Counted from the stretch's first letter, positions 206 to 29,517 are shown. The stretch is 29,990 nt of DNA from Candidatus Vampirococcus lugosii (GCF_018420025.1 NZ_JAEDAM010000009.1:1-29990); one strand, 5' to 3'. Numbers and translations: made by a program. Notes: generated from the sequence alone by a model not told the origin.

Positions 206-2287
206 ATGATAGAAAAATATGAAATACCAACACCAGATTATATAAATATTATAAGTAAAGAGCTTAATTTAGAAAATTGACAAGTCCAAACTGTGATTGA
301 GCTTACATCTCAATGAGCAACAGTTCCATTTATTTCTCGTTATAGGAAGGAACAAACTTGAAATTTAGATGAAAATCAAATAAGATCTATTTTGGAAATT
401 CAAAAATTTCAAGAAAATATAAATAAAACAAAACAAACTGCAATAAATTGAATTGCTGAACAAAATAAATTAACTGAAGAGCTTTTATCAAATATACTTG
501 CTTGCAAAACTTTGAAAGAAGTAGAAGAAATATATAAACCTTATAAATCAAAAAGAAAAACAAAAGCTATGATTGCAATAGAAAAATGATTTCAAATAGT
601 GGCAGACAATATTAAATTAAATAAATTAATAATACCAAATGAACTTTTGGAAAAATATAGTCAAGAAGAAATATTGGAATGAGCAGTACAAATAATATGA
701 GCAGAAATAACAGCAAATTTAAGTATTAGACATTTTGTTTTGGATGAATTAAAAAAATATTGAATTATAAAATCTAATAAAAAGTCTGATAAAATGCTTG
801 AAAAACTTAATGAAAAAAATAAAAAACAAATATATAAATTTGAAATATATTTTGAATTTGAAACAAAAATAAAAGATATAAAAGCTTATCAAGTATTGGC
901 ACTAAATAGATGAGAAAAATTATGAATTTTGAATGTTAAAGTAATTAAAGATATTGTAATTCAAGAAAAAACTTTTTCATATTATTTAGATATTTTATGA
1001 TTAAAAGAAAATAAAATAAATGAATTTTTGGAATGATTTAAAATATGATTTGATTCATTATATTCATCTATTGATAGTCAGATAAGAAGTGAATTGAATG
1101 AATTTGCAGAAAATGAATCAATACAAACTTTTCAAAATAATCTTTCCAATTTACTTATGACAAAACCACAGTATTGACAAAAAATATTAGCTATTGATCC
1201 TTGATTTAAAGCAGGTTGTAAAATTGTTTTATTAGATGAATTATGAAATCCATTAAAATTTGATAAAATTTTCTTAAATCAAACAGAATCCTCAAAAGAT
1301 AAAATTAAAAATTTAGTAGAAGAGTTTTGAATAGATGTAATTGTAATATGAAATTGAACATGAACACAAGAAATACAACAAATAGTTTCTGAAATTTTTG
1401 ATAAAGAAATTTATATAGTAAATGAATCTTGAGCATCAGTTTATTCTGTGTCAGATATAGCTATAGAAGAATTTCCCGATTTAAATGATTTGGATAGATG
1501 AACAATTTCTATAGCTAGAAGATATATAGATCCACTTTCTGAGTTGGTAAAAGTTCCAGTATGAAGTATATGAGTTTGACTTTATCAACATGATTTAGCC
1601 AAAAAAAAACTTGAAGAAAAACTTTGATATGTAGTAGAAGATAGTGTAAATAAAGTATGAATAAATGTAAATACAGCAAGTATTTATTTATTAAATCATA
1701 TATCATGAATTGACAAAAAACAAGCAAAAAAAATATATAAAAATAGACCTTATAAAAATAGAAAAAATTTGGAAAAAATATTGTCATCAAAAGTTTATGA
1801 ACAAGCAATATGATTTTTGAGAGTCCCTAAAAGTGATGAAGAACTTGATCAAACTGATATACATCCTGAACAATATGAACTTGCAAAATATATTATCAAA
1901 AATAATAAAAATAAACTTGATGAAAAAATGAAAGAAATATATCCAAGTGTAAATCAAATAACTATTGATTTTATATTAAATTCTTACAAAAATATTGCCA
2001 AAGATCCTAGAGAAAATTTTGCACATACCAAAATAAATAAATCAATAAATATAGATGAATTAAAAGAATGAGATATTTTGGAATGATTGGTAAGAAATGT
2101 AGTTGCTTTTGGTGCTTTTGTTGATATTTGATTAAAAAATGATTGATTAGTACATATATCACATCTATCAAATGAATTTGTAAAAGATCCTATGGATATA
2201 GTAAAAGTATGAGATAAAGTTAAAGTTAAAGTTATAAAAATTGATTTGGAATCTTGAAAAATTAATTTAAGTATGAAAGACTTATAA
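206..2287 (+). CDS. tex: Tex-like transcription accessory protein (Tex N-terminal, YqgF-like, HhH and S1 domains)
   Basis: 693 aa with TGA=Gly, ends TAA. Motifs: GATVPFISRYRKEQTGNLDE near the N-terminus; YqgF-like AIDPGFKAGCKIVLLD and IVIGNGTGTQE; SIGVGLYQHD; C-terminal S1 domain [29 protein letters not shown]. Standard-code fragment 1817..2071 is in the same frame (start mod 3 = 2). Confidence 0.9.
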
Positions 2288-2676: not shown

Positions 2677-3777
2677 ATGATTTCATATAAAGAAATAAAT
2701 TATATAATTGATTTATTTAGAGAAGTTGAAAGTTCAATATCAGAAATTGATTTTTTTGATTGTAAATCAAATAATAATTTTTTATATAGTTTTTTGTATA
2801 TTATAAATTTTAGACAATTTATTATAAATAAAATTTATGAAAATAAAAATATGAGATTTTATTTAAATGTTTTTAATTTTCAAAAAAATTTTAATAGTTT
2901 AGACGATATTGAAAATATTATTAAAAATAACAATATATTTGAAATTGATTTTGATAAAAATAATTTACATAAAATATATTCAAAAAATTTAGTAACTATA
3001 AGTTTTTTTATTAGATATTTAGAAAATAATAATATATTAAACTTAAATAATTTATTTTTAAAAAAACTATCTTTTTATGAATTTGAAAAATTTAAAAAAA
3101 ATAAAATAATAAATTATAAAAATCCTATATATGATTTTTATAAAAATAAATTTCTATGGAAAAATAATTTTGATAAATTTTTTGATGAAAAATATGAAGA
3201 AGTAAAAATTGAATATAAAGATAAACTTAAAAATAAAAAAGATATATGATATACTGAATATAAATTGATGCGACTTTATAATTATAATATACTTTATAAA
3301 TCTTATCAAAGTATAAATAATTTTAATTTTATAAAATATTTTATAGCAAAATATATATTTGATATATGAAATTATTTTAAATATAATTCAAATCAAATTA
3401 AATTTTTGTATTTATTTCATTTTTGTAAAAATTATGAACAATATAAAAAATTTCATAGTTTGTTTTATAAAAAAATCTCTCAAAAAAAAATTGATTTATA
3501 TCTAATTTGATTTTTTTCTTTTGTGTGAATATTTACTGCTTATTTTATAAATTTTAATATTTGATTTTTTGTTTTCTTAATAATTTTTGTTGTAATAATT
3601 ATAGGAATATATTCATATAAAAGAAATTTTTTATCAATTTTGCCTACAATAAGAGCTATTTGTTTATGATGAATATTAATTTCTGTAATTTATTTTTGAT
3701 ACGAAATAAATATAAATTTTAGTAAAGATAGTTTATTAAATATGACTGTAAATATATTGTCTTGAAAAAATAAATAA
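2677..3777 (+). CDS. Hypothetical membrane protein: Asn/Lys/Phe-rich N-terminal half, C-terminal transmembrane helices
   Basis: 366 aa. Standard-code ORF 2677..3249 continues in frame through several TGA codons to TAA at 3775. Hydrophobic helices include GFFSFVGIFTAYFINFNIGFFVFLIIFVVIIIGIY and AICLGGILISVIYFGY. No family recognised. In-frame CGA at 3271. Confidence 0.6.
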
Positions 3778-8609: not shown

Positions 8610-10253
8610 ATGACAATAGATAATTTTTCAGAAAATACTAGAAAAGCGGATGAATTTTTGGATAATTTGGAAACAGAAACTAAAGATTCTATAAGTGAAT
8701 CATTAAAGGTTGAAACAGAACATGCAATACCAGATATTGATTATGAAATAGAATTATATAAAAATGCATATAAAAAATTATCAGAGATGGAACAGAAATT
8801 TTGAGAAGCATTATGAGACTATTCTTTTGATCATTATGATTGAGAATTAGATACTAAATATAGTTATACTGAATTTGAAAAACTTGCAAGAGGTTTAAGA
8901 CAAGAATTAATAGATTTACAAAATACTAAAGAAGATATAGGTTTTCTTGAATATAAAGCTTCTGTAATATGAAGAAAAACATGATTGTATAAAAATCCTT
9001 TAAATTTTGATTATCTTTTATCAGAAAAACTTGGTAAAGAAACTAAACAAGAAAAACTATTTAATAAGATGGTTGATAAGTTGTTAGATGTTGAACGAGA
9101 AGTAAAAAACCATATAGTTAAAAGTTTAGAAACAGATTGAAAGTTGCCTGAAAGAGAAACAAAAATTAATTCGGATATTGAAAATTTAGAGTTTGAGACA
9201 GATTTATGAAGAATAAAATTTTCAGAAATTGAAGATTATGAACCTGAAACAACTACAGAAAAAATTGATTTATGGCGAAGTCAAAGAGAATATTTTGAAT
9301 GACCTGATTTAGTTATTGATTTGGGGCTTGATAAAGATGAAAATGAATCTAATATTGATGCAACAGATATTAATGAATTTACTGATTTACTTGTAAACTT
9401 ATTGGAAGAGAATCCAAATGTTTTGAAAGAGCTTGAAATACAAGATATTTATAATTTGTCTCCAAAAGAAGCTATTTTACTTTCATCAAAAATAGTTAAA
9501 GATAAATTAGAATTTTCTCTAACTAAAAGTTCTATTGATAAAAATGTAAATAATGATTGATTATTAAGACAATTTATTTGACTAATTAATACAGATTGGA
9601 TAAGTGATTATAAATTAAATGAAAGTGTTCTATCAAAATTACCACAAGAAATGCAAGATGAAATTAGAGAAAATCCTAAAGAAGCATACAAAAAATATTC
9701 TTCTGAGATAGATCAAGTATCTATGAACGAACTTTTTGAATCAAATAGTGAAGTAAGTTCCAAAAATTATTCACAAGCTGTAAAATTAGTTTTTGATATA
9801 CTTAAAGAAATGCAAGATCCAGATACAACACAATTGAAAAATACTTACTGTAAACAACATACAATAGATCTTTGAGAATTTGATGATTCAGAAATTGTTA
9901 GTAGTAGTTGGAATACTTTTTATACAATATCACCACATTATAGAAGTAATGTTGATGTAGTAATAATTGATGCAGCACATGCAGATTCTTGATTAGAACT
10001 TGATTGAAAAATTTCTTATTCTGAAGATAAATTTTTATTTAATTTAATTAATTTGGAAAAACAAGGTCTAATTTCAAAAGAAGAAAAAATTTATCAATTG
10101 GAATATTGGGCAAAATATAATGAAAATCGACAAACTCCTTTATACAAAAGTGTTTGTTCTTATATCGCAAATTATTATAAAGAAATATGAGAAACATATA
10201 AATATTTGAAATGGATGTGATATACAGATACTGAAAAAGAATATAATATATAA
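8610..10253 (+). CDS. Hypothetical large acidic protein (orphan)
   Basis: 547 aa. Standard-code fragments 8577, 9321 and 9651 are all in frame 0 and are joined only by TGA codons. Checked codon by codon with no TAA or TAG until 10251. Contains three in-frame CGA codons (9096, 9276, 10128). Confidence 0.7.
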
Positions 10254-11694: not shown

Positions 11695-13059
11695 ATGTTT
11701 TTTAGTAAAAAATATATTTTATATCTTCGTTTATTGAGACCTATTTTTCATATACTTTTGATACTTTTATCGTTTTGGATAGTTTATAATATTAGATTTT
11801 ATGATTTTGTAGAAAATATTTTTCTTGATTTGCCAGATATTATATTTAATGAAACTTTAATATTTACATTAATTTCATCTTTTTTATTTATTTTAATTTG
11901 ATTTTTATTTTCTATTTATGAAATATTTAAACCTATACATTGATATTATAAAGAATTTTTAAAAATTCGATTTTTTTGGATGATTATAATATCTTTTATA
12001 GCTTATTTGTGACAATGATTTATTTTTCCTAACGGTATTTCTAGATTTATACTTTTAATTGGATGATTTTTTTCATTATTATTTATTACTATTTTTGATA
12101 TATTATTAAATAATATTAATTCTTATTTGGAAAGAAAAAATCCTTATAAACTTTTATTTATATATTCTACAGAAAGTTTTTATAAAAAAATATTTAATAG
12201 TTTTAGTGATTACAAAATTTATGATATTACTTGAATTTATGTAGATGATTTATTAGATTTAAATAAAGAAATTAAAAAATATGATATATTTGTTACTGTA
12301 GGTAATTTTGATAAAAATTTTTTACAAAATTTAATGGATATAATAAGACTTTATAATAAACAATTTTATCATATATCAGAAAATTTTTTCTTGGAAGATT
12401 TAGTATATTCATCTTCTAGAATTGGTCCAGTTTTGGCATATGAACAAAAACCTTCTCCATTGGATTGATGGTTCAAAGTAACTAAAAGAATTACAGATAT
12501 ATTATTTTCTATATTGTTTATAACAATTTTTTCTTGGCTTTATATATTAATATCAATTTTTATCTTTATTAAAGATTGAAGACCTATTTTTTATAAATCC
12601 GAAAGAATAGCTAGATGATGAAGAAAATTTTTTATGTATAAGTTTAGAACTATGATAAAAGATGCTGATAAACAAAAACAAAAATTAATAAAACAAAACG
12701 AAAGAAAATGACCATTATTTAAAATAAGTAATGATCCTAGAATTCCTAAATGGTGAAAAATATTGAGAAAAACTTCTTTAGACGAAATACCACAATTTCT
12801 TAATGTAATAAAATGAGATATGTCAGTAGTAGGACCTAGACCTCATTTGGATTTTGAAGTTGAAAAATATGAAAAATGGCAAAAAAGACTTTTGAGTGTT
12901 AAACCTTGAATTACTTGATATGCTCAAATATTTGGAAGAGATAATTTAGATTTTGACGAAGAAGCGAAATTAGATCTTTATTATATTCAAAATTGGTCAT
13001 TATTTTTGGATGTTTTTGTTATTATTAGCACTATTAAAGTTGTTTTTTCTGGTAGGTAA
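11695..13059 (+). CDS. Polyprenyl-phosphate sugar phosphotransferase (WbaP/Bac_transf family)
   Basis: 454 aa. Four N-terminal TM helices, a central soluble region and a fifth TM. C-terminal catalytic domain [103 protein letters not shown], and KPGITGYAQI. In-frame CGA at 11968. Confidence 0.88.
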
Positions 13060-13210: not shown

Positions 13211-14566
13211 ATGGTAAATTTGGAAGATATAAAATTGCCTCCTAATAATTTAGAAGCTGAAAAATGAGTATTATGATCAATCATTTTGGACAATGATGTT
13301 ATGTATATACTTGATAGTTTCGTTATGACTGAAAATGATTTTTATCAAAGACAACATAAAGATATATATTCTTGTATATTAGAACTACATTGAGAAAATA
13401 AAACTATTGATATAGTTACAATTTCAAATCAACTTACAAAAAATCAAAAATTGGAAGATTGTGGTGGTATTGATTATTTATATGAATTATCTAGTAGTAT
13501 TATTAGTCCTACCGTAGCATGAGATTATGCAAAAATTGTTAAAGATAAATCTATTTTGAGATGAATATTAAAAACTACTCAAATTATTTCTTGAGAAGTT
13601 TATGAAGAAAAAGATACATCTGAAATTCTTGATAATATAGAAAAACAAATTTTTAATCTTACACAGATAAAAACAAGCAATAGTTTACAACATATTAAAG
13701 ATATATTAAATAGAAGAATTGAAGATTATATGGAAATAGTAGATGATCCTGATAAAATAAATAGAAATAAAGTTTTGTCTATGTATAATTATTTGGATAA
13801 ACTTTTGTGATGATTTAAACCTTGAGAATTACATATATTAGCTGCTAGACCTAGTATGTGAAAAACATCTTTTGCTATTAATTTGTTAGTAAATGCGGCT
13901 ATTAAACAAAATAAATCTGTAGCACTATTTTCTTTGGAAATGTGAAATGAACAAATTGTTGATAGAATTCTTTCGGCAGTTGCTGATATACCGATTTATA
14001 AAATACATAAATGACAACTTGATGAAGAAGATTTTGCAAATATTTGAGAAGCTATGGAAAAAATTTGACAAGTAAATATTTTTTTGGATGATAAATGATG
14101 AGCTAGTATTCCAGAAATTAAATCAAAACTTAGAAGATTAAAAATAGAAAAATGAGCTTTGGATATGGTAATTATAGATTATTTGCAACTTATGAGTAGT
14201 GCTTGATCTAAATTTGCATGAAATAGAGTGCAAGAAATATCTGAAATATCAAGATGATTAAAAGAAATGGCAAGAGAACTTGAAATACCAATTATGGCAT
14301 TATCTCAATTATCTCGTGCTGTAGAACAAAGACCTGATAAAAAACCACAATTATCTGATCTTAGAGAATCTTGAGCTATAGAACAAGATGCAGATGCAGT
14401 AATGATGCTTTTTAGAGAAGAATACTACGATCCTGATACTGATAGACCATGAACTGCCGATGTATTGTTGAGAAAAAATAGAAACTGACCTACATGAGAA
14501 GTTGAATTAAGTTTTGTTAATGAAATAATGAAATTTTATGATAAAGTTCCAGAACAAGAAGACTAA
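13211..14566 (+). CDS. dnaB: Replicative DNA helicase DnaB
   Basis: 451 aa. [19 protein letters not shown]. Walker [17 protein letters not shown] (Gly is TGA at 13859). Walker [54 protein letters not shown]. Confidence 0.93.
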
Positions 14567-14598: not shown

Positions 14599-15165
14599 AT
14601 GTTAGTAGTAGATATTGAAACAACTTGACTTGATACAGAAAAATGTAGTATACTTAGTATATGAGCTTTATGTCTTGAACAAATAAATAATACATTTTAT
14701 TGAGAATGTAAAATTTGGGATTGAGCTGATATATATGAAGAATGACTTGCGATAAATTGATTTACTAAAGAAAATATTAAAGATTCTAAAAAACAAAATG
14801 AATGAGAATTAATTTTCAAATTTTTGAAATGGCTTGATCAATTTGATAATAAAATTATAGCTTGACAACATCCTATGGCTTTAGATATTCCTATATTGAA
14901 ATCTGCTTGCAAAAGAGCAAATATTGATTATAAGTTTTCTCATAAAACTATAGATTTACATTCTTTGGCATATTGATATTTTTTGAATAAATGAATACAA
15001 ATTCCATTGAAAGAAGATTGAACTAGTGATATTAGTTTGGATTATATTGCAAAATATTTTGATTTATGAGAAGAACCAAAACCACATAATGCACTTAATG
15101 GTGCCAAATATGAAGCAGAATGTTTTGGTCAAATTATTTATAATAAAAAACTTTGAATAATTTAA
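14599..15165 (+). CDS. DnaQ-like DEDD-family 3'-5' exonuclease domain protein
   Basis: 188 aa. ExoI VVDIETTGLD. ExoII-like GQHPMALDIPIL. The ExoIII-like motif HNALNGAKYEAE has Gly where the canonical H-x4-D Asp is expected, so activity is uncertain. Confidence 0.7.
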
Positions 15166-15176
15166 AATAATAAATT

Positions 15177-15920
15177 ATGTATATTTTTACTTTTAATTTG
15201 TATTTTTCTTTTGATAAAATTGTTTATTTACAAACTTCAACAAAATTATCTATAGGTGATTTAATATATATTAAATGATCTTATGCAATAGTTTTATGAG
15301 ATAATATTTCTTTTAAAGAATTATATTATAAATATAATTTATCTTATGAAACTGTAGAAATTATATATAAAAATTTTTTGAATAAAAATTCAATCAAATT
15401 AATAAATTATATAGTATTGGAGTATTTTTCTACATTTAGAAAAGTTATTCCATTGTTTGTTCCAGATAATAATATAGATAAATTATTAAAAAATAAATTA
15501 AAAATTAAATCAATTAAACTAAATTCATTAGATATTATTGACAACAAAATATCTATTTCAAAAGAAATAAATAAAGAAAAAAAAATCTTTATTTTTCCAA
15601 ATGTTTGGTCTGCATACAATATTATAAATAATAATAAAATTATTGAAAATTATTGAATATATTATTGATCTACTAGTATTTTGTCAAAATCAAAATTATT
15701 TTGGGAAATATCAATGAATAAAAAATTAGATTTATTATGTACTCATTCTCAAATATTTCAGAATTGGTCAAATTTAAAAAAAATATATATATTTAATCCA
15801 CATACTTGGTATTACAAAACTCAACAAGAACCGAGATATAATATATGTAATATTATTGAATATATGTCAAAATTATATAAAAATGATTTAATATATATAA
15901 ATGATCTTCGTTTATTTTAA
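15177..15920 (+). CDS. PriA-like (primosomal protein N') remnant lacking Walker A, DEAH and the entire C-terminal half
   Basis: 247 aa. Standard-code fragments 15378 and 15681 share frame 0. Colinear with PriA landmarks. N-terminal barrel: LSIGDLIYIKGSYAIVLG. LINYIVLEYFSTFRKVIPLFVP vs l..w.a.yY....g.vl...lP. IFIFPNVWSA vs lvLvPEi.lt. SKSKLFWEISMNKKLDLLCTHSQIFQNWSNLKKIYIFNPHTWYYKTQQEPRYNICNI vs s..eR...W..i..G...iviGtRSAlF.P..nLglIivDEEHd.sYKq...PrY.aRdv. No GxGKT motif, and DEEH is replaced by FNPH. Confidence 0.5.
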
Positions 15921-16134
15921 ATTGAAAATTATTGAAATTATGATAAAATTTATACTAGATTTTTTAATATTTCCTTTTAAAAAAAATAAAGAAAATAATA
16001 AATTCAATGAACTTATTGTTTTTCTTTTTAGAAAATATCCTGCATATTTATGGAAAAATATTAGTTTTTCAAAAATTTTATGGAAAATCATAGCATTACC
16101 AATTTTTATATTATATATTATATTCAAAAAATAA
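15901..16134 (+). CDS. Possible small membrane protein
   Basis: 77-aa standard-code ORF overlapping the previous gene by 20 nt. An alternative ATG lies at 15940. Hydrophobic ends: FILDFLIFPF and IIALPIFILYIIF. No homology evidence, and in this AT-rich DNA it could be spurious. Confidence 0.3.
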   Translation: MIFVYFKLKIIEIMIKFILDFLIFPFKKNKENNKFNELIVFLFRKYPAYLWKNISFSKILWKIIALPIFILYIIFKK

Positions 16135-16470
16135 TTTAGATCTTTTAAATTAAGAGAAAGCTCTTTTATTTAAAGATAATCTTACAAATAAAAAAATTGG
16201 GATATAATATTTATGATTATTAAAAATAATAAATGTTGATTATATTCTGATACATAATTACAAAAAATCTGTTTAATCTAGAATTATAGATTTTACTGAT
16301 AATTGCAAAATTTTGAGATAATTTTTTTAGTTTAAATTAGTATAATTTTTTGTTTTAAAAAATTTTGAAATAAAAAACAATATCTTGTTGAAATAATATA
16401 TTGAATTATTAATAATATTTATTATATACAAATATATAATTAATTATTTTTATTTAATAAATTAAAAAAT

Positions 16471-19580: not shown

Positions 19581-21260
19581 ATGAAAAAATTATCATCAGA
19601 AGATTTGAGAAATATTTGGAAAAATTTTTGGGAAAATTGAGAAAAAGATCATAAATATCTTAAATATTCATCATTAATACCAGATAGTAAAGATAAAACA
19701 GTTCTTTTCAATACTGCTTGAATGCAACAGCTTGTATCATATTTGCTTGGTAAACCTCATCCTTTATGAAATAGGCTTTATAATATTCAAAAAAGTTTGA
19801 GAACTTGAGATATAGATGAAGTAGGAGACGAAAGACATCTTACATTTTTTGAAATGTTTGGAAATTGGTCTTTATGAGATTTTTTTAAAAAAGAATCTTT
19901 GACTTGGTCTGTAGAATTTTTAAATAAAGAAATTTGAATTTCTATAGAAAAAATTTGAGCAACAATTTTTGCTTGAGATGAAACTTTATGAATATGAGAA
20001 GATATAGAAGCTAGAAAAATTCTTAATGAAATATGAATTCCTAATTCAAGAATTAAAGCAATATGAATGGAAGATAATTTCCGAGGACCAGCAGGGGAGT
20101 TGGGACCTTGTTGACCTTGTTCAGAATTTTTTGTTGATAGAGGTGAAGAATGGTGAAAAAATAATTGGGATATGTGAGAAAATGATAGATTTATAGAAGT
20201 TTGGAATAATGTTTTTATGGAGTTTTACAAAAATGAAGATTGAACTTTTTCAAAATTAAAACAAAAAAATGTAGATACAGGTATGTGACTTGAAAGACTT
20301 GCTATGATTTTACAAAATAAACAAACAGTTTTTGAAACTGATTTATTTGAATTTATTATGATAAGTTTACAAAATTTTGTTTGAAAAAAATATGCACCGT
20401 TCCAAAAACATGAAAATGAGTTTGATCAACAAGAAAAAAATGATACAAGGCATTTCAGAATAATAGCAGATCATATAAGAACAGCTATTTTTATGATTTG
20501 AGATTGAGTAATTGCTAGTAATGATGGTAGATGATATGTACTTAGAAGACTTATCAGAAGATTTTATTATTCTCTTATTTCTCTCAATGAAAATATTAAA
20601 TTAGATGATTTTATTAATGATTTGGTAAATAAAGTAAACCAAAAATATTGAACTTATTATATAGAAATTTCAAATGGTGTAAATAATATTATTTCATCTA
20701 TATTAAACGAAATTTATCAATTTCAAAAAACAATTAATAATTGAATAAGAGAATTTGAAAAAATAGTAAAAGAAATAAAAAATTCTGATAATCCAAATAG
20801 GAATTATTTGACATGAGAAGAGGCATTCAAATTATATGATACTTATTGATTACCAGTAGATATGATAGAAGAACTTGCTTTCCAAACTTGATTTTCAGAA
20901 AAGTGATTAAATCCTGTTTCTTTTATTGAATTTGAAAAAGCTATGGAAAAAGCAAGAGAAAAATCTCGTAAATCTTCAAAAGATATGTTCAAAAGATGAA
21001 TTGATTGGGCAAAATATTTGGATTGAATTAGTCCTACAGAATTTGTTTGATATGAAAATTTGGAATTGGAATGAATAAAAATTTTGAAAGATTTTGAAGT
21101 AAACTGACAAAGAGTTATTATTTTTGATAAAACTCCTTTTTATGCAGAATCTGGAGGTCAAACTTCTGATATTGGAATTTTGGAATTTGATGATAATAAT
21201 GTATTAAATATTTATGAAGTTCAAAATTATTCTGGTGTATTTTTACATTTTATTAAATAA
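19581..21260 (+). CDS. alaS: Alanine--tRNA ligase, catalytic and tRNA-recognition domains only (no editing or C-Ala domain)
   Basis: 559 aa. VLFNTAGMQQ; HLTFFEMFGNWSLGDFFK; EDNF-[CGA][91 protein letters not shown]. Ends TAA at 21258, just inside the beta-barrel and before any HxxxH/CxxxH editing motifs. Confidence 0.9.
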
Positions 21261-21385: not shown

Positions 21386-23518
21386 ATGAGAAATAATAAA
21401 TGATTTAGTATGATAGAAACTGTGGTGTCAATATGAGTAATTGCTATATTGGCAATAATTGCAGGATTAAGTATTACTATTTGGGTAAGTAAAGCAAGAG
21501 ATGCAGAAGTGGTAAATAATGTAACGACTATAGCATGATGACTTGAAAGTTATCATGTAACAAATTTTGAGTATCCAGAACCAGATGGAAATATTTTAAC
21601 ATGAAATTTGGAGCAGTGAATAATGTGAACTTGAGTTATTGAAGAATTATCAAGTTTTGTAAATGTAAAAAATTTATCAAATTCTAATAAATATATTTAT
21701 AGTACTTATCAAATTTATGATCATTATCAAGTAGTATGATTATTGGAAAATGATGTTCAAATACAGGCATATGATTATATGATAGATAAGGCATATGCAA
21801 ATACAGATGCAACTATAAAACTATGAAATAAAGGATACTATTCAAAATGAACTATTGGAATGCATTTAATAGCAAATCAAGATAATACTTTGGTGCTTGA
21901 ATGAAATGATTTAAAATCAAGTTATAAATTGATAAGTAATATTTGAAATGAAGATATTGTTTTAAATAATTTAGATGATGTTAAAAAAATTTCAGAAACT
22001 ATTGTTAAAAATTGATGATCTTGATGAGATTGATGAAATTCGGATTTGTTATGAACTATTGAATGTAGTGATAAAACAGTTTGAACTACATTTGAAATAT
22101 TTTGAGATACATATTATGTAGCAAGTGATAAAAAAGATATTCAAGATAATATTGATGGAGAAATAGATGGAAGTAATTTTATATGAGATTATCCAGCTAA
22201 TAGAATATGTACAAGTAATGTTACTGATATGAGTAGTTTATTTAATTGAGAAGAAAATTTCAATCAAAATATATCAAATTGGGATACAAGTCAGGTTACT
22301 ACTATGAGACAAATGTTTTGGAATGCAAGTTCATTTAATCAAGATATAGCAAATTGGGATACAAGTAATGTTACTAATATGAAACAAATGTTTTTTAATG
22401 CAAGTTTATTTAATCAAGATATAAGTACTTGGGATACAAGTAATGTTACTACTATGAAAGAAATGTTTTGGAATGCAAGTTTATTTAATAAAGATATATG
22501 AGATTGGGATATAAGTCAGGTTGATACTATGAATATGGAATGAATGTTTAGATGAGCAAGTTCATTTAATCAAGATATAGGTGATTGGGATACGAGTAAT
22601 GTTACTACTATGAGATCGATGTTTTGGAATGCAAGTTCATTTAATCAAGATATAGGTGATTGGGATACAAGTAATGTTACCACTATGAGATCAATGTTTA
22701 GATGAGCAAGTTTATTTAATCAAGATATAGGAAATTGGGATACAAGTAATGTTGATACTATGAGTTATATGTTTAAAGATGCAAGTTTATTTAATCAAGA
22801 TATATCAACTAAAAAAGTAAATGAATGAAGTGATGATGAATATATAGCTTGGGATACGAGTAATGTTACTACTATGAGATCGATGTTTAATTGAGCAAGT
22901 GTATTTAATCAAGATATATGAAGTTGGAATACAAGTAATGTTACTAACATGGAAGATATGTTTTATTGAGCAAGTTCATTTAATCAAAATATATGAAATT
23001 GGGATACAAGTAAGGTTGCTACTATGAATAGAAATAGAGATGGTTGAATGTTTAGATGAGCAAGTTCATTTAATAATGGATGTGATGAATGAGATCTTGG
23101 TTGTGATTTAAATAATTGGGATACAAGTAATATTACTACTATGAGAGAAATGTTTAGATGAGCAAGTTCATTTAATCAAGATATAGGTGATTGGAATACA
23201 AGTTATGTTAAAGATATGACACATATGTTTAACTGAGCAGATAGTTTTAATCAAGATATAGGTGATTGGAATACAAGTAATGTTACTAATATGAGTTATA
23301 TGCTTAAAGCAGAAAATTTTAATAATTGATGTGATAAATGAGTTTCAGGTTGTCCTTTAGGTTGGGATACAAGTAATGTTACTAGTATGTTTCAAATGTT
23401 TAATGATGCAGAAAGTTTTAATCAAGATCTATCATGATGGTCTGTTAGTAGTGTAACAGATAATCGGGCATTTGATGATTGAGCCAATGCACGAACAGAA
23501 CCAAAACCACAATGGTAA
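21386..23518 (+). CDS. Type IV prepilin-like protein fused to a DUF285 / BspA-type leucine-rich repeat domain
   Basis: 710 aa. Class III signal MRNNKG|[22 protein letters not shown] with the -1 Gly encoded by TGA (21401-21403), Glu at +5 and a hydrophobic pilin helix. Then a ~230-aa unique region and ~15 repeats of consensus [11 protein letters not shown].MF.[10 protein letters not shown] (DUF285 signature). Standard-code fragment 22304..22501 is in frame. Confidence 0.85.
22208..23470 (+). repeat. Coding tandem repeat array, 75-nt (25-aa) unit with occasional insertions, about 15 units
   Basis: The Trp codons of successive WDTS motifs at 22280, 22355 and 22430 are exactly 75 nt apart. Neighbouring units (for example from 22583 and from 22658) differ at roughly ten of 75 positions by hand comparison. 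Confidence 0.85.
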
Positions 23519-23537: not shown

Positions 23538-23569
23538 AAAAAAACATTTCTATTAAGAAATGTTTTTTT
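23538..23569 (+). terminator. Rho-independent terminator after the pilin-repeat gene
   Basis: Perfect 14-bp inverted repeat AAAAAAACATTTCT (23538-23551), loop ATTA, AGAAATGTTTTTTT (23556-23569). It lies 20 nt after the stop codon and its T-run is part of the 3' arm. Confidence 0.6.
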
Positions 23570-23683
23570 AATAAAAACAAATAAAAAATGATTTTAATCT
23601 TGAAAATATATTAATTTTTAATATATATAATTTGATTAAATGTTTTTTATGAAGTTTTAAATATATAAAAATATTATTAGAAA

Positions 23684-24256
23684 ATGATAAAATATTTTAT
23701 TAGTTTTATATTGTTTTTTTGATTATTATCTTTTGTAAATGCAGATTGTATAGATTTTGATGAATGAAAATTATGTTTAAATTTGGAAAATACTTGAAAT
23801 TGAAATTATAAAGTAAATAAAAATTTTGATAATAATTCTTCAAATAATATTTTTTTGTTATCATGTAGTATATTGACTCCATCTTGAATTTTGAAAGAAT
23901 TATGAGCTTGTGATTGAAGTTTTGAATATAATTGAACTTGAATAAACGATATTAGATATTATGTAGATTTTCAAGACCAAAGAAAAATATTGAATACTAA
24001 AGCTAATTTTGTTTATTTTAAGTATAGACAATGGCAAGAATTTATTTGAGTATATTCTATGTGGCAAGATTTGGTAGATAAATTATGAAATAAATTTCCT
24101 AAATTGGCAAATAATCAAGAATGGATAAATATAAGTAATAATCTTTATAAACAAATGGATAATCTTGTAAATACAGAAAAATCTACTATTGATTCTTATC
24201 AAAATTTTTATGATTTAATAGTTGATTATGTTAGATACAGTATCTCAAAAAAATAA
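23684..24256 (+). CDS. Hypothetical secreted protein (signal peptide, Cys-containing N-domain, helical C-terminus)
   Basis: 190 aa. Signal-like MIKYFISFILFFGLLSFVNA|DC. Five Cys in the first ~90 mature residues. C-terminal helical segment QEWINISNNLYKQMDNLVNTEKSTIDSYQNFYDLIVDYV. Confidence 0.6.
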
Positions 24257-24923
24257 TAAAAAACCTATAATAGAAATTGAAAAATTATCATTTTCTCATA
24301 ATAAATGACAAGAATGTTTTTTTGAAAATTTGGATATTAAATTATCAAAAAGTGATTTGTTAGTTATTTTTTGAAAATCAGGCTCTTGAAAAACTAGTTT
24401 TTTGAATATATTATGAAGTTTAAATAAACCAATTAGTGGTAAAATTTTTTATAATTGATTAAATATTTTTGAACAAAAAAAATCTTTTTTGCAAAATTAT
24501 AGAAATTCCAAAATATGATTTGCTTTTCAAGATTTTAGAATATTAGATGATTTTTCTGTTTATGAAAATATTGTTTTGCCATTTTATATATGAAAATTTA
24601 AAAAAGATATTGACTGGATAAATTATTTGATAGATTATTTTGAAGTTTCTCATTTATTAAATAAAAATATTAAATATATTTCTTGATGAGAAAAAGAAAG
24701 AGTAAGTTTACTAAAATCATTTGCTCATAAGCCACAAATAGTTTTATTGGATGAACCTTGATCTTATTTAAATCAAGATCTTAAAAATAAAATATTTGAT
24801 TTTATATATGAATATTCTCAAAATAATATTTGTGTTATAGTATCTCATGATAATTATTTAATTGATTATTTTTCTTTAAATAAGTTTATTGAAAATAAAG
24901 ATTTAACATTTTATAAAAAATAA
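24228..24923 (+). CDS. ABC transporter ATP-binding protein (MacB/FtsE/LolD-like)
   Basis: 231 aa. The ATG at 24228 overlaps the upstream CDS by 29 nt. Walker A GKSGSGKTS (two TGA Gly), Q-loop FAFQDF, signature ISGGEKERVSL, Walker B IVLLDEPGS, H-loop VSHD. Confidence 0.85.
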
Positions 24924-24926
24924 TTT

Positions 24927-26168
24927 ATGTTTTGGAAATTTATTTATAATGATTTTGTACAAAATAAGTTCAAAAATATTCTTGTAATATTTACATTTTT
25001 TATAGTTATGTTTTTTTCTATTAGTATTTTCATACTTGATAAAAATTTAAATCAATTTATATTTGATCAGACATGAATTTCTGAAAGATTAAAAAATCCA
25101 AATATGCTAGAAGTAATGCCAAAATCTTGAACATTAGAAGCTATTTTATTAGATCGTGAAGATGATAGTAATGATGAAATAATTTCTTTGGAAAATGATG
25201 ATAGAGTACATAAAATATATTATTTTTATAATACTAGATTTCCAAATTCTTTATGAATTAATTTATTTTGAACTGAAATAAAAACTGATTTTTTGATGTA
25301 TATTGCATCTGATGAATTGTTTACTAAATCAAGTTTTAAAAATGATGATATACCATTATGAATATCAAAAAAACTTTTGGATTTATATAATTTTGAATTA
25401 TCAAATAATTCTTTATTTCCAAGAATTACTGAATCACAACTTTCATTATTAAAATTTGATTTAAAATTTAATCATTCAAATATTTTTAATATTAAAGGTA
25501 ATGATTATTCTTGAGCTTGAAGAATAAATACGGTAGATAATAATTTTCCTTTATTATGATTGACTATTCCTTATTCAAAAGCTAAAAAAATATTTGAAAA
25601 TATTTGAGAAAAAAAAATAAATATTCATAAATCTTTGGTTTTTTTGAAAGATAAAAATATGATTAATTCCTTTGTTCAAGATTATCCTAATTTGAATATT
25701 AAAACTTTGGAGTCAGAAAAAGAAAATATAACAAATAAATTATTTGTAATAAAAGCTTTTATGTTTTTTGTTTTGTCTGTTGTAGTATTTGTTTTAATTA
25801 GTTTTATGTTTTTCTTGACTCATTCTATAGTTTTTGATAATAAAAATATATTTAAAATATTGATAAGTCATGGTGCATCGTCTTTATTTATATTTTGAAT
25901 AATTTATTTTAAAATATTTTTTTCTTTTTTGGTGGCATTTATTATATTATTAATATATGTTTATATTTTGAATAATTTAGTATTTATATATATTAGTAAA
26001 TATATATATAATAATTATTCTTTAACTATTGATTTCGTTCCAATATCTTATTTAAATATTTTAATATTATTTTTGTCTTTTTCTATTTTTATTACTATAT
26101 TAGTATTCTTAATATCAAGAAAATCTATTTTTATGAAATATTTAAAAAAATATTTAATATTAAACTAA
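24927..26168 (+). CDS. FtsX/MacB-type ABC transporter permease
   Basis: 413 aa. Starts 4 nt after the ATPase stop. Topology: TM1 (ILVIFTFFIVMFFSISIFIL), a ~230-aa extracytoplasmic domain, then three C-terminal TMs. Standard-code fragments 25635 and 25929 are in the same frame. Confidence 0.75.
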
Positions 26169-26240
26169 TTTTATATTGAAAATAGAATATAAATATATAT
26201 ATTTTATTAGTAAATAATTTTATGAATTTAAACTAAAATA

Positions 26241-27656
26241 ATGAATCTTACATTAGAATCTTATATTAATCATATTAATTCTTGAGAATTAAAAGCTGTT
26301 GATGTTCTTAATAATTATTTAAATAAATCAAAAGATTTAAATAAAGAAAATAATGCATTTGTTAGATTTCATGAAGAATATGCAAATGAATTTATAAAAA
26401 ATTCAGATTCAACAATTTTGAAATGAGCTCCTATTTGAGTAAAAGATATATTTTTAACTAAATGATTAGTTACTAGTTGTTGTTCAAAAATGTTACAAAA
26501 TTATATATCACCTTATAGTTCAACTTGTTTTTTAAATTTGGAAAAAGCTTGAGCATGTATGATATGAAAAACAAATATGGATGAATTTGCAATGTGATCT
26601 AGTACAGAAAATTCTTTTTTTGGTCCTACAATTAATCCATATTGAAAAAATAGAATACCTTGATGAAGTTCTTGAGGTAGTGCTGCTGCTGTTGCTAGTG
26701 ATATGTGTATTGCTTCTTTGTGAACTGATACATGATGAAGTATTAGACAACCTGCAAGTATGTGTTGAGTAGTATGATTTAAACCAACTTATTGAAGAGT
26801 TTCAAGATATGGAATACAAGCTATGGCTTCATCGTTGGATCAAGCTTGAGTTTTTACAAAAACTGTAAAAGATGCGGCTATACTTACTAAATATATGTCA
26901 TGAAAAGATAAAAAAGATGCAACATCTTTAGATTTAGATTTTTCTGATAGTCTAGATTTAGCTTTACAAAAAGATAATTTGAAGTGATATAAAATAGCAG
27001 TAATTAATCAATTTTTTTCTGAAGGTCTAGATCAAGGAGTAAAAAAAATAATACTTGACAAAATAGAAGAGATAAAAGATAAATGAGCAGAAGTAGAATA
27101 TATTGATTTTTCTATATTGGATTATGCTTTGAGTGTTTATTATATTATAATGCCTGCTGAATTAAGTACTAATTTATCAAGATTTGACTGAATTAGATTT
27201 GGTCATCAAGATGAAACTTTTAAATATGATGATATTTATTCTTATTATTCTTCAATAAGAAATGAATGATTTCAAGATGAAGCAAAAAGAAGAATTATGA
27301 TTTGAACTTATGTATTAAGTGCAGGTTATTATGATGCATATTATTTGAGAGCTCAAAAAGTAAGAAAATTAATAAAAGAAGAATATGATAAAATATTTTC
27401 TAAATATGATGCCATAGTTTGACCTGTATCTCCGACTCCTGCTTGGAAAATTTGAGAAAAAATAAATGATCCTATCAAAATGTATTTATCAGATATTTAT
27501 ACTATACCAGTTAATTTAGCTTGATTGCCAGCTATGTCTTTACCAGCATGAAATATTGAAAAAGATTGAGAATCTCTTCCTGTATGATTACATATAATAG
27601 CAAATCAATTAAAAGAAGAAAATATATTTTCTATAGCTTCTGTATTGGAAAAATAA
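26241..27656 (+). CDS. gatA: Glutamyl/aspartyl-tRNA amidotransferase subunit A (amidase signature family)
   Basis: 471 aa. GAPIGVKD; [26 protein letters not shown]; GGSSGGSAAAVA (TGA Gly at 26661, 26664, 26673); [31 protein letters not shown]; [11 protein letters not shown]; [17 protein letters not shown]; LAGLPAMSLP. Confidence 0.92.
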
Positions 27657-27677
27657 TTTAAATATAAAAATATTATA

Positions 27678-28133
27678 ATGGAAATTAATCTTTATGATTG
27701 AGAAAAATTTGAGAGAACAAAAGTTCGGTATATTAGTTTTGTTACATTATATGTATTTTTTATACTAATTTCGTTATTATCTTGAAATATAACTTGAGTA
27801 ATACTACTTTTTTTGTTTCTTGGTTGATATATGTTCTTTAATTTACTTTGAAAAAATAATATAAAAGCAAAAATTTTTGATGAATGATTAAAAATTTGAA
27901 ATAAATTTATTGCTTGGAGTAATGTGCATTGATTTGTACTTGAACTTGATGACAATACAAATCTTATTAAAAATATTGTATTTTTGGTAAATAATACTAA
28001 ACTTGTACATACTCTAAATGATGATAATGAAAAAATAAAAGAATTTATTTTAAATCTTAATGATAAATGTGAAATGTTATCTTATTATGATCAAACTTTT
28101 GTGGATAAAATTATAAGAAAATTAAAAATTTAA
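27678..28133 (+). CDS. Hypothetical membrane protein (two TM helices plus a soluble C-terminal domain)
   Basis: 151 aa. YISFVTLYVFFILISLLSGNITGVILLFLFLGGYMFF. In-frame CGG at 27726. No family recognised. Confidence 0.5.
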
Positions 28134-28152
28134 ATTTTAAACAAAATTAATA

Positions 28153-28434
28153 ATGTCATACAATGATATATTTGAATCTAAAGAAAATGATATAAATGAA
28201 ATTGAAGTATTAAAAAAAGATTTAAATTCTTTGCAAGAATTAGTAGTTGATCAGATTGTAGAAGATTTGGTCTATAAGTTTAAAAATAAAGATTTTGATT
28301 CTTTTCAAAAAAATATCAAGAAAGCTGAAAAATTTAAAAAATGAGTAATAATAACTAAATTTAAATCTTGTTTTGAAAATAATATGAATTCTTTGAACTC
28401 AAAACAAAAAGAAATTATAAATAATTTGAATTAG
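28153..28434 (+). CDS. Hypothetical small protein
   Basis: 93 aa. Standard-code ORF 28153..28344 continues through one TGA to TAG at 28432. Charged and helical-looking. Confidence 0.45.
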
Positions 28435-28533
28435 TATTGAGTGGTGTTTTTATTTTTAATCTAATATTTTAATTTTAATATTAAGTAAATTAAAGTATAT
28501 ATATCGTATATTTATTTTTTAAAATAAAAAATT

Positions 28534-29142
28534 ATGGAATTTAAACTTGTTGATTTGGAATATTGATATGATGAATTTGAGCCGTATATAGATAAAGAAA
28601 CTATGAAAATACATCATAGTAAACATCATCAAACATATGTGGATAAATTAAATAATTCTATAAAATGAACTGATGCAGAATGAAAAAGTTTAGAAGAAAT
28701 ATTTGAAAATATGTCAGATTTTTCTGATGCAATAAGAAATAATTGAGGTTGAGTTTATAATCATAATATTTATTGGTCAAGTATTTCTCCAAATTGATGA
28801 TGAGAACCTAAATGAAAACTTTTTGAAGATATAGTTAATACTTTTGGAAGTTTTGATTTATTTAAAAGTGAAATGGAAAATGCTTGATTATCTCAATTTG
28901 GATCAGGTTGGGCTTGGTTGATAGTTGATAAAGACTGAAATCTTAAAATAACTAAAACACAAAATCAAGATAATCCACTTATGAATATTTTGAGTTCGGA
29001 TAATAGATGAAAACCATTATTTTGTATTGATGTTCGGGAACATGCTTATTATTTGAAATATAACAATAGAAGAAATGATTATTTAAGTAATATATGGAAT
29101 ATTATAAATTGGGATAAAATAAGTGATGATTATAATAATTAA
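28534..29142 (+). CDS. sodA: Fe/Mn-family superoxide dismutase
   Basis: 202 aa. [29 protein letters not shown]; [11 protein letters not shown]; FGSGWAWL; DV-[CGG][15 protein letters not shown]. All four metal-ligand positions are present (H in KIHHSKHH, H in YNHN, D and H in DVxEH). Confidence 0.9.
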
Positions 29143-29164
29143 TATAGCTTTTTTAAATTTAATA

Positions 29165-29199
29165 AAAAATACACTGAAAATAAAATTAGTGTATTTTTT
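29165..29199 (+). terminator. Hairpin plus T-tract after the SOD gene
   Basis: AAAAATACACT (29165-29175), 12-nt loop, AGTGTATTTTT (29188-29198), about 22 nt after the stop codon. Confidence 0.5.
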
Positions 29200-29517
29200 A
29201 TTAAACTCATTTTTGTAGAACAAATTTTCTAAATCTTTAATTTAGAGAACTATTTGCGAGAAATTAAAAATAGATTTATGTACTACACAAATTTTTAGTT
29301 TGCAAATATTCTATTTATAGACATTAATATATGATTGATATAAGTTTTTTAATTATATTTGCGAGTACTTTTTTAATAAACATATTATGATTATTTTTAT
29401 TAAAAATAATAAAACACAAAAAATAATACATTATAATAAAAAAATTATAATTTCAATAGCGAATATTATTATATTCTCTATTGCAGTATAAATTATTTTT
29501 GATTACAGAATATTAGT

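What the first reader, a model, noticed from the sequence alone, without database searches (positions are those of the whole stretch)
29035..29037. In-frame CGG sits on the invariant Trp of the Fe/Mn-SOD 'D-x-W-E-H-x-Y-Y' motif
The SOD model reads [24 protein letters not shown]. The family signature is D-[VM]-W-E-H-A-Y-Y. In it, Asp and His are metal ligands and the Trp between them is conserved essentially everywhere in the family. CGG differs from TGG by one base, so a lone case could be a mutation or an error. This is the second independent conserved-Trp hit in the window, after AlaRS at 20082. TGG is still used for other Trp residues in the same gene (GSGWAWL, NIYW), so CGG would be an additional Trp codon, not a replacement.
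Basis: partly seen in the sequence, partly recalled or inferred. Interest (0 to 1): 0.85.

Follow-up and report, generated by a model that had tools for sequence, protein, structure and literature searches.

The report
CGG read as tryptophan, known code
The CGG codon really does sit on the invariant tryptophan of a superoxide dismutase gene, most likely because this very AT-rich SR1/Absconditabacteria-type bacterium reads CGG and CGA as tryptophan, a genetic-code change already predicted by computation for this clade in 2021.

Summary
CGG at 29035-29037 is codon 168 of a 202-codon Fe/Mn-SOD gene (28534-29142, +). It aligns with a Trp that is present in all 114 standard-code reference SODs.

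The window (GC about 0.20) uses code 25: TGA supplies 418 of 504 Gly codons. It holds only 10 in-frame CGA/CGG codons.
- Three lie on strongly conserved Trp: SOD, AlaRS EDNF-W, and a DUF285 C-terminal motif.
- None lies on a conserved Arg.
- Conserved Arg is encoded by AGA, AGG or CGT.

The same CGG is present in an independent Logan assembly of a strain that differs by 0.5%.

Across 185,579 species genomes, CGA/CGG at this SOD site occurs in 48 low-GC SR1/Absconditabacterales-type genomes. In those genomes the five other invariant Trp columns of SOD use TGG, CGA and CGG interchangeably. In their flanking genes CGA and CGG behave like TGG, not like AGA.

DnaB is 75% identical to that of Ca. 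Absconditicoccus praedator.

Shulgina & Eddy (eLife 2021) predicted CGA and CGG to Trp in Absconditabacteria, and later work re-found it.

The decoding tRNAs are not in the window, and no peptide evidence was found.

The parts
28534..29142 (+). Fe/Mn superoxide dismutase gene: 202 codons, 12 in-frame TGA (Gly), stop TAA
   Evidence: Pfam Sod_Fe_N plus Sod_Fe_C. Full-length alignment to PDB SODs at E=3e-68. Metal-ligand residues H28, H77, D166 and H170 are present.
29035..29037 (+). The CGG codon (codon 168) on the invariant Trp between ligands Asp166 and His170
   Evidence: The column is W in 114 of 114 references. It is TGG in A. praedator and GCA_964532625.1. It is CGG in the Logan strain contig L001.
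19581..21260 (+). Alanyl-tRNA synthetase gene (559 aa, catalytic and tRNA-recognition parts only)
   Evidence: Pfam tRNA-synt_2c, E=2.5e-139. PDB 1riq alignment.
20082..20084 (+). CGA codon on the invariant Trp of the AlaRS EDNFW motif
   Evidence: It aligns with the W of 'EDNFW' in Aquifex AlaRS.
21386..23518 (+). Gene for a pilin-like N-terminus followed by DUF285 repeats; it carries one CGG and one CGA near the C-terminus
   Evidence: Pfam DUF285 (6 stretches) plus N_methyl.
23492..23494 (+). CGA codon on the conserved Trp of the DUF285 C-terminal motif A-W-T-E-P-K-P
   Evidence: W in 7 of 9 aligned homologs.
23465..23467 (+). CGG codon in a variable polar column (S/D/N/Q in homologs); uninformative
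   Evidence: Alignment A3.
27726..27728 (+). CGG codon in a 151-aa hypothetical membrane protein, just before a hydrophobic segment; untestable
   Evidence: No Pfam hit and no homolog in the fetched loci. The codon is kept in strain contig L001: no difference at this position in the window/L001 comparison.
9096..9098 (+). CGA codon 163 of the 547-aa hypothetical gene (8610-10253); variable polar column
   Evidence: Family column E7, R2, N2, S2, K1, A1, no W.
9276..9278 (+). CGA codon 223 of the same gene; variable polar column
   Evidence: Family column K6, D6, Q4, S4, R3, no W.
10128..10130 (+). CGA codon 507 of the same gene; Lys-rich variable column
   Evidence: Family column K in 7 of 14, no W.
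11968..11970 (+). CGA codon in the N-terminal membrane part of a WbaP-type sugar transferase; not alignable
   Evidence: Only residues 261-451 align to WbaP/PglC structures.
3271..3273 (+). CGA codon in a 417-aa hypothetical protein; untestable
   Evidence: No Pfam family.
14315..14317 (+). Control: CGT codon on the conserved Arg of DnaB (LSQLS-R-AVE), showing that CGY keeps the Arg meaning
   Evidence: It aligns with R in DnaB structures. The codon is also CGT in A. praedator.
338..346 (+). Control: CGT and AGG codons on the conserved Arg residues of Tex (PFIS-R-Y-R-KE)
   Evidence: They align with R and R in P. aeruginosa Tex 3bzc/2oce.

Best explanation
The window comes from a very AT-rich (about 20% GC) member of the SR1/Absconditabacterales lineage. 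Its closest named relative is Ca. Absconditicoccus praedator. The lineage uses a doubly altered code. UGA is Gly (translation table 25). The CGN box is split: CGU and CGC remain Arg, while CGA and CGG are read as Trp alongside UGG.

Under this code the SOD is an ordinary, presumably active Mn/Fe-SOD with the canonical D-V-W-E-H-A-Y-Y active-site motif. The TGG to CGG change at codon 168 is a synonymous transition.

Shown here:
- the codon-to-column correspondences in three genes of the window;
- interchangeability of TGG, CGA and CGG in about 50 related genomes;
- retention of Arg meaning by AGA, AGG and CGT.

Inferred from the literature, not seen in this window: decoding by tRNA(CCG) and tRNA(UCG) that carry Trp identity features (G73, no A20) and are charged by TrpRS. 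Also from the literature: no tRNA(ACG) gene was detected in this clade, so CGA would not be read through inosine wobble, and low GC drove CGR codons to rarity before they were captured.
For: In the window:
- There are 3 CGG and 7 CGA among 9,219 in-frame codons, against 73 TGG and 182 AGA.
- CGG 29035 lies on the W that is 114/114 in SOD. CGA 20082 lies on the invariant W of AlaRS. CGA 23492 lies on a DUF285 C-terminal W found in 7 of 9 homologs.
- No CGR codon lies on a conserved Arg. Conserved Arg uses AGA (SOD R68, R180), CGT (DnaB) and CGT plus AGG (Tex).

Not an error:
- Contig L001 from SRR13241708 is 99.46% identical over 5.7 kb with 29 mismatches, 14 synonymous against 10 non-synonymous, and keeps CGG at 29035 and at 27726.

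In the clade:
- The pattern GAY NTN CGR GAR CAY GCN TAY TAY hit 59 places in 185,579 species genomes. Forty-eight are SODs of low-GC genomes, most labelled SR1, Absconditabacterales, Gracilibacteria or 'Peribacteria', the rest unlabelled.
- In those SODs the five non-ascertained invariant Trp columns use TGG, CGA and CGG interchangeably, for example 19/27/4 and 25/20/5. The invariant Arg column is AGA 46, CGC 1, AGG 1, AAA 1, and never CGR.
- In the non-SOD flanking ORFs, 53% of CGA sites and 53% of CGG sites lie in Trp-set columns. The figure is 48% for TGG and 1% for AGA.

Relationship:
- DnaB is 74.7% identical to A. praedator DnaB. That locus has CGA on the conserved W of UppS (STEN-W-K).

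Literature:
- PMC8629427 predicts CGA and CGG to Trp in Absconditabacteria. Its Figure 4 source data show tRNA(UCG), tRNA(CCG) and tRNA(GCG) present in most genomes and no tRNA(ACG).
- The prediction was re-found by KACI (10.64898/2026.04.02.715157) and is cited in PMC13092985.
Against: - No tRNA gene or other Rfam family is in the window. The tRNA(CCG) and tRNA(UCG) of this organism could not be retrieved, so the decoding step is not shown for this genome.
- No peptide evidence for CGR as Trp was found. The eLife paper itself says that only experiment can settle in-vivo decoding and possible ambiguity. A Gracilibacteria metaproteome paper does not mention CGG, CGA or tryptophan.
- Four of the seven testable CGR codons are in variable polar columns. 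The three CGA codons of the 547-aa hypothetical gene fall in columns that look like that gene's own AGA columns (K, E, D, Q, R; never W). About half of the TGG codons in related genomes are also outside Trp-dominated columns.
- Three intact SOD ORFs in standard-code genomes carry CGG (Arg) at this site, so Arg there is not strictly impossible.
Confidence: 0.9

Rival explanations
1. Ambiguous or incompletely reassigned decoding. In this extremely AT-rich lineage CGR codons, CGA in particular, would be read partly as Trp and partly as Arg. Alternatively, some CGA codons would be relics tolerated at surface positions.
For: The three CGA codons of the 547-aa hypothetical gene sit in columns rich in K, E, D, Q and R that resemble the gene's own AGA columns. 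A. praedator also has CGA in Lys-rich contexts (M-CGA-KKIG, FFKK-CGA-VF). The eLife authors leave ambiguity open. In sister order BD1-5, Codetta gives CGA as Arg or '?' alongside CGG as Trp or '?'.
Against: At clade level CGA is in Arg-set columns at 7% of sites, against 5% for TGG and 61% for AGA. There is therefore no excess over true Trp codons. Partial Arg insertion at the AlaRS and SOD active-site Trp residues would be costly. According to the literature, both CGR-reading tRNAs of the order show Trp features.
Confidence: 0.05
2. A genuine Trp168 to Arg substitution under plain table 25 (CGG = Arg). The SOD would then be an inactive, altered or decaying copy.
For: NCBI table 25 translates CGG as Arg. 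Intact SOD ORFs with CGG at this site exist in GC-rich standard-code genomes (L016, L018, L040). Six further such sites lie in frameshifted or fragmentary copies.
Against: All four metal ligands and every other conserved column of this SOD are intact. The gene shows 2 synonymous changes and 1 conservative change between strains. Under this reading the essential single-copy AlaRS would also carry Arg at its invariant active-site Trp. Forty-eight related genomes show CGR at this site and at the other Trp columns.
Confidence: 0.03
3. A sequencing or assembly error, or a transient mutation, T to C at 29035.
For: CGG differs from TGG by one transition. This is a single site in a metagenomic sequence.
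Against: The same CGG is in Logan contig SRR13241708_681. That contig differs from the window at 29 other positions, 3 of them inside the SOD gene. Two other conserved Trp residues in the window are encoded by CGA, which is two changes away from TGG.
Confidence: 0.01
4. C-to-U mRNA editing restores UGG from CGG after transcription.
For: None was found here. It is considered only because a single C-to-U change would restore Trp at CGG.
Against: The same editing applied to CGA would give UGA, which is Gly in this code, not Trp. Yet CGA sits on conserved Trp in AlaRS and DUF285, and is the commonest Trp-column codon in related SODs.
Confidence: 0.005

Closest known systems
CGA and CGG to Trp reassignment in Absconditabacteria / candidate division SR1 (Shulgina & Eddy, eLife 2021, PMC8629427)
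   Same: The same two codons take the same new meaning, on top of UGA = Gly. Shared features are low GC, AGA-dominated Arg usage, rare CGR codons, CGY still Arg, and TGG still in use. The closest named relative of the window organism, A. praedator, is in this order.
   Different: This organism has lower GC (about 0.20) than the 0.29-0.38 listed for the order. Its CGR usage is lower: about 8 CGA and 3 CGG per 10,000 codons, against 13-37 CGA and 1-24 CGG. Its tRNAs were not seen here.
NCBI translation table 25 (SR1 and Gracilibacteria: UGA = Gly)
   Same: In-frame TGA falls on conserved Gly columns. The ORFs as delimited here close with TAA or TAG.
   Different: Table 25 still translates CGA and CGG as Arg. 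Database proteins of this gene therefore read DVREHAYY (P0001).
BD1-5 Gracilibacteria with CGG as Trp or '?' and CGA as Arg or '?' (Figure 4 source data of PMC8629427)
   Same: Very low GC (0.21-0.29), UGA = Gly, very rare CGR codons, and low CGU and CGC usage similar to the window.
   Different: In those genomes tRNA(UCG) is missing and CGA is mostly inferred as Arg. In the window CGA sits on conserved Trp in AlaRS and DUF285, and DnaB and SOD point to Absconditabacterales.
CGG to Trp in Anaerococcus and in RFN20 Bacilli (Onthovivens); CGG to Gln in Peptacetobacter
   Same: A rare CGG is captured in low-GC genomes through a dedicated tRNA(CCG).
   Different: Those are Bacillota with a standard UGA. 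Only CGG is reassigned, and CGA stays Arg.

Membership tests
Fe/Mn superoxide dismutase (Pfam PF00081 + PF02777) | Both the N-terminal alpha-hairpin domain and the C-terminal domain are present above the curated cut-offs | tested here: met
   Sod_Fe_N 99.8 bits (cut-off 27) and Sod_Fe_C 130 bits (cut-off 20.9). Alignment over residues 2-200 to PDB SODs at E=3e-68.
Fe/Mn superoxide dismutase (Pfam PF00081 + PF02777) | Four metal ligands (His, His, Asp, His) | tested here: met
   H28, H77, D166 and H170 sit in their conserved contexts (alignment).
Fe/Mn superoxide dismutase (Pfam PF00081 + PF02777) | Signature D-x-W-E-H-x-x-Y with Trp between the Asp and His ligands | tested here: inconclusive
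   The codon on the Trp column is CGG (W in 114/114 references). The feature is met if CGG = Trp, which is strongly supported, and not met under table 25 as published by NCBI.
Genetic code 25 (UGA = Gly) | In-frame TGA at conserved Gly columns, with long ORFs closed only by TAA or TAG | tested here: met
   There are 418 in-frame TGA in 29 ORFs. Ten of the 12 TGA in SOD fall on columns where Gly is majority or co-majority. In related SODs TGA aligns with G 134 times, D 11 and A 10.
Genetic code 25 (UGA = Gly) | tRNA-Gly(UCA) present and release factor 2 absent | not testable with these tools
   No tRNA gene in the window.
Absconditabacterales code variant (CGA and CGG = Trp) | CGA and CGG fall on conserved Trp columns and not on conserved Arg columns | tested here: met
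   Three of seven testable CGR codons lie on conserved Trp and none on conserved Arg. In the clade 53% of CGR sites are in Trp-set columns, against 1% for AGA.
Absconditabacterales code variant (CGA and CGG = Trp) | CGU, CGC, AGA and AGG retain the Arg meaning (split CGN box) | tested here: met
   CGT on the DnaB Arg. CGT and AGG on the Tex Arg residues. AGA on SOD R68 and R180.
Absconditabacterales code variant (CGA and CGG = Trp) | tRNA(CCG) and tRNA(UCG) with Trp identity (G73, no A20); no tRNA(ACG) | not testable with these tools
   No tRNA in the window or in about 60 related loci apart from Cys, Ser, Thr and Pro. The feature is known only from the literature for the order.
Absconditabacterales code variant (CGA and CGG = Trp) | Phylogenetic membership of the order Absconditabacterales | tested here: inconclusive
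   DnaB is 74.7% and SOD 61-63% identical to Ca. Absconditicoccus praedator. No marker-gene phylogeny was made. The organism is not among the GTDB species representatives reached by the AlaRS peptide scan or the SOD pattern scan.
Absconditabacterales code variant (CGA and CGG = Trp) | Peptide-level proof that CGR codons are translated as Trp | not testable with these tools
   No proteomic evidence was found in the papers searched.

The most novel reading that the evidence does not exclude
In this roughly 20%-GC lineage the reassignment may be incomplete or ambiguous. CGR codons would give Trp where it is needed (SOD, AlaRS, DUF285). The CGA codons in Lys/Arg-like surface columns of the 547-aa protein would still be tolerated as Arg or as a mixture. 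That would make this a living 'ambiguous intermediate' of a sense-codon reassignment in a bacterium.
Probability: 0.05. Interest if true: 0.7.

Novelty: already known. Interest (0 to 1): 0.3.

Why it matters
Sense-codon reassignments in bacteria are rare, and this window is a clean textbook instance. The active-site Trp of SOD and of AlaRS is written with 'arginine' codons.

The practical consequence is that table 25 (like tables 4 and 11) mistranslates these genes. The database copy of this SOD reads DVREHAYY. Annotation, structure prediction and proteomic databases for SR1/Absconditabacterales genomes need a code with CGA and CGG = Trp.

The biology itself was predicted in 2021, so the finding adds a new, unusually AT-rich example and an independent confirmation. 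It does not add a discovery. What remains open in the field is experimental proof of the decoding, and this organism's enrichment or reads could help supply it.

Tried and rejected
I went round this through homolog P0001.
- The AlaRS-based search of GTDB genomes found no relative. Back-translated peptides containing Gly or Trp cannot match TGA or CGA.
- The Tex-based search of JGI metagenomes found only distant S1-domain matches, so neither the source contig nor close relatives could be extended.
- tRNA scans of the window and of about 55 related loci found no tRNA(CCG) or tRNA(UCG). Rfam found nothing in the window.
- The supplements of PMC8629427 and PMC13092985 hold presence/absence tables and tRNA-Trp(CCA) sequences, but no tRNA(YCG) sequences for this order. 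No search pattern could therefore be designed.
- The N-terminal membrane part of the sugar transferase does not align to WbaP structures, so CGA 11968 stays untested.
- The accessions SRR13241708 and SRR13241709 are not mentioned in the paper library, so the sample's origin is unknown.
- The terminator scan after the SOD gene found nothing by its G+C-rich criterion.
- C-to-U editing was rejected because CGA would become UGA, which is Gly.

Full report
**What is at the coordinates.** The window is extremely AT-rich, with GC of 0.14-0.25 per 2 kb. The ORF 28534-29142 on the + strand has 202 codons. It is open only if its 12 in-frame TGA codons are sense codons. With TGA = Gly it reads as a complete Fe/Mn superoxide dismutase. 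Pfam finds Sod_Fe_N and Sod_Fe_C, and the protein aligns end to end with solved SODs at E=3e-68. Codon 168, at 29035-29037, is CGG. It lies between Asp166 and His170 in ...LFCIDV-[CGG]-EHAYYLK..., opposite the W of IDVWEHAYYL. That column is W in 114 of 114 standard-code reference SODs, and ten of the 12 TGA codons fall on columns where Gly is majority or co-majority. The five other conserved Trp residues of the gene are TGG.

**All CGR codons of the window.** In 29 ORFs delimited by TAA or TAG (9,219 codons) I counted the following:
- TGA 418 and GGN 86;
- TGG 73;
- CGG 3 and CGA 7;
- CGT 7 and CGC 1;
- AGA 182 and AGG 13.

The ten CGR codons were examined one by one.
- CGG 29035 lies on the invariant SOD Trp.
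- CGA 20082 lies on the invariant W of the AlaRS motif EDNFW.
- CGA 23492 lies on the W of a DUF285 C-terminal motif (A-W-T-E-P-K-P) that is W in 7 of 9 homologs.
- CGG 23465 lies in a variable polar column.
- CGA 9096, 9276 and 10128 are all in one 547-aa hypothetical gene. They lie in variable polar columns of a family of 128 HMMER hits.
- CGA 3271, CGA 11968 and CGG 27726 could not be tested.

No CGR codon lies on a conserved Arg. Conserved Arg residues are written AGA (SOD R68 and R180), CGT (Dna[10 protein letters not shown]), and CGT plus AGG (Tex PFIS-R-Y-R-KE). The CGN box is therefore split into CGY = Arg and CGR = Trp-like.

**Not an error or a pseudogene.** Among the 120 best database homologs, the only protein with Arg at the site is P0001. 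This is the same gene called with TGA = Trp from a Logan assembly of SRR13241708. Its contig is 99.46% identical to window 23540-29260. The contig carries 29 mismatches, 14 synonymous against 10 non-synonymous, and 3 of them are inside the SOD gene. It keeps CGG at 29035 and at 27726. Other Logan contigs are 99.93% and 100% identical to other parts of the window and keep all CGA codons.

**Related genomes.** A scan of one genome per 185,579 species for GAY NTN CGR GAR CAY GCN TAY TAY gave 59 places.
- Forty-eight are SOD genes in low-GC genomes (0.25-0.43), most labelled SR1, Absconditabacterales, Gracilibacteria or 'Peribacteria' and the rest unlabelled. Of these, 43 have CGA and 5 have CGG.
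- Nine are SOD-like sequences in GC-rich standard-code genomes.
- Two are chance matches.

I analysed 50 low-GC SOD genes: these 48, the window, and GCA_964532625.1. The five invariant Trp columns that were not used for ascertainment show the following TGG/CGA/CGG counts:
- 19/27/4;
- 25/20/5;
- 35/13/2;
- 33/13/1;
- 18/31/0.

The invariant Arg column is AGA 46, CGC 1, AGG 1, AAA 1, and never CGR.

I then compared the non-SOD ORFs flanking those genes all against all. The table gives the share of sites that lie in columns dominated by the Trp set or the Arg set in other genomes.

| Codon | Sites | Trp-set columns | Arg-set columns |
|---|---|---|---|
| CGA | 368 | 53% | 7% |
| CGG | 131 | 53% | 10% |
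| TGG | 497 | 48% | 5% |
| AGA | 1,652 | 1% | 61% |

CGA and CGG behave like TGG and unlike Arg codons. With the AGA baseline of 1%, three of seven testable CGR codons of the window on conserved Trp has a probability of about 3e-5 (my calculation).

**Who the organism is.** The nearest SODs are from GCA_964532625.1 (66%; it uses TGA = Gly and has TGG at the site) and Ca. Absconditicoccus praedator (61-63%; TGG at the site). DnaB is 74.7% identical to the A. praedator protein. That locus has a similar codon profile: TGA is 5% of codons, and there are 6 CGA and 1 CGG in 6,014 codons. It carries CGA on the conserved W of UppS (STEN-W-K), on the aromatic position of the PAP2 H-[W/Y/F]-P-x-D motif, and on BCAT positions that I recall as Trp and Phe in E. 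coli IlvE (own knowledge, no alignment run). The organism was not reached in the GTDB species set or in JGI metagenomes.

**Comparison with what is known.** Shulgina & Eddy (eLife 2021, PMC8629427) predicted that Absconditabacteria (SR1) read both CGA and CGG as Trp, in addition to UGA = Gly. They reported supporting positions in single-copy genes and tRNAs consistent with the reassignment. They classified tRNAs provisionally as Trp acceptors by G73 and the absence of A20. They noted that this clade appears to lack tRNA(ACG) and relies on tRNA(GCG) for CGY and on tRNA(UCG) and tRNA(CCG) for CGR. They argued that low GC drove these codons to rarity first.

Their source data list ten Absconditabacterales genomes. 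CGA was inferred as Trp in all ten. CGG was inferred as Trp in four, as '?' in five and as Arg in one. GC is 0.29-0.38. Usage per 10,000 codons is 13-37 for CGA and 1-24 for CGG. In the sister order BD1-5 (GC 0.21-0.29, no tRNA(UCG)), CGA is Arg or '?' and CGG is Trp or '?'.

The reassignment was re-found by a k-mer method on 2.7 million assemblies and is taken as known in a 2026 NAR paper. The window is thus another, more AT-rich example, with roughly 8 CGA and 3 CGG per 10,000 codons.

No experimental proof of the decoding turned up. The eLife authors say explicitly that only experiment can establish it and exclude ambiguity. A Gracilibacteria metaproteome study does not mention CGG, CGA or tryptophan.

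**Mechanism, and what is shown versus inferred.** Shown: the codon-to-column statistics in this window and in about 50 relatives, retention of the codon in a second strain, and the Arg meaning of CGT, AGA and AGG. Inferred from the literature: Trp-accepting tRNA(CCG) and tRNA(UCG). No tRNA or Rfam family is in the window. None of the related loci I fetched carried these tRNAs.

Under the reassigned code, TGG to CGG at codon 168 is a synonymous transition. The SOD is then a normal enzyme with the active-site Trp in place.

**Rivals.**
- A real W168R substitution is contradicted by three results. The rest of the gene is intact. The essential AlaRS shows the same pattern. The clade-wide data point the same way.
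- A sequencing error is contradicted by the second strain, and by the CGA sites, which are two changes away from TGG.
- C-to-U editing would turn CGA into UGA (Gly), so it cannot explain the CGA sites.
- Ambiguous decoding cannot be excluded. The three CGA codons of the 547-aa gene lie in columns rich in K, E, D, Q and R that look like that gene's own AGA columns. However, about half of true TGG codons in the clade are also outside Trp-dominated columns, and CGA shows no excess of Arg-type columns over TGG.

**Verdict.** The phenomenon is already known for this clade, so interest is modest. The remaining value is practical: correct translation tables for these genomes, and targets for the still-missing experimental proof.

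Noticed in passing
window 1-29990 (all ORFs): TGA is by far the main glycine codon. There are 418 TGA against 86 GGN, which is 83% of Gly codons and 4.5% of all codons. The A. praedator locus L065 is similar, with 309 TGA in 6,014 codons.
   Followed up: partly
window 19581-21260: The alanyl-tRNA synthetase ORF is only 559 aa. It has a Pfam tRNA-synt_2c hit only, with no tRNA_SAD editing core and no DHHA1/C-Ala part. The next gene starts at 21386. The editing function is either encoded elsewhere or lost.
   Followed up: no
window 21386-23518: A 710-aa protein begins with a type-IV-pilin N-terminal methylation motif and continues with at least six DUF285 repeats. It may be a pilus-tip or surface adhesin of an episymbiont or predator.
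   Followed up: no
L016 3097-3120, L018 3011-3034, L040 3848-3871 (GTDB genomes): Standard-code, GC-rich genomes carry CGG (true Arg) at the same 'invariant' SOD Trp in ORFs that look intact. They are two Gammaproteobacteria MAGs from sample MFD02416 and Halomonas sp. I1 (a divergent SOD-like paralog). Six further cases are frameshifted or fragmentary (L005, L028, L043, L046, L054, L058). These may be natural W-to-R variants, pseudogenes or base-calling errors.
   Followed up: partly
window 8610-10253 (CGA at 9096, 9276, 10128): Three of the window's seven CGA codons are in one fast-evolving hypothetical gene. All three lie in polar, variable columns (K, E, D, Q, R; never W) that resemble the gene's own AGA columns. 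This is unexplained. It may reflect tolerated Trp at surface sites, recent mutations, or residual ambiguity.
   Followed up: partly
window 28534-29142 compared with L003-L061: The window's SOD is of a Bacteroidota-like Mn type (58-59% identity). It shares this type with A. praedator and GCA_964532625.1. The SODs of the other 48 low-GC loci are less similar to it. Horizontal acquisition in this sub-lineage is possible.
   Followed up: no
window 6161-16260, 26-11885, 23540-29260: Public Logan assemblies of SRR13241709 and SRR13241708 contain 100%, 99.93% and 99.46% identical contigs (L063, L062, L001). The organism, and a second strain of it, is therefore present in those runs. In L001 the ORF 24927-26168 ends six codons early (AAA to TAA at 26148).
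   Followed up: partly
L064 3001-4904: The gene pair 8285-8602 / 8610-10253 has a syntenic pair of homologs in a 36%-GC contig (Logan SRR12762304). That contig uses TGA as a stop, so it comes from a standard-code organism.
   Followed up: no
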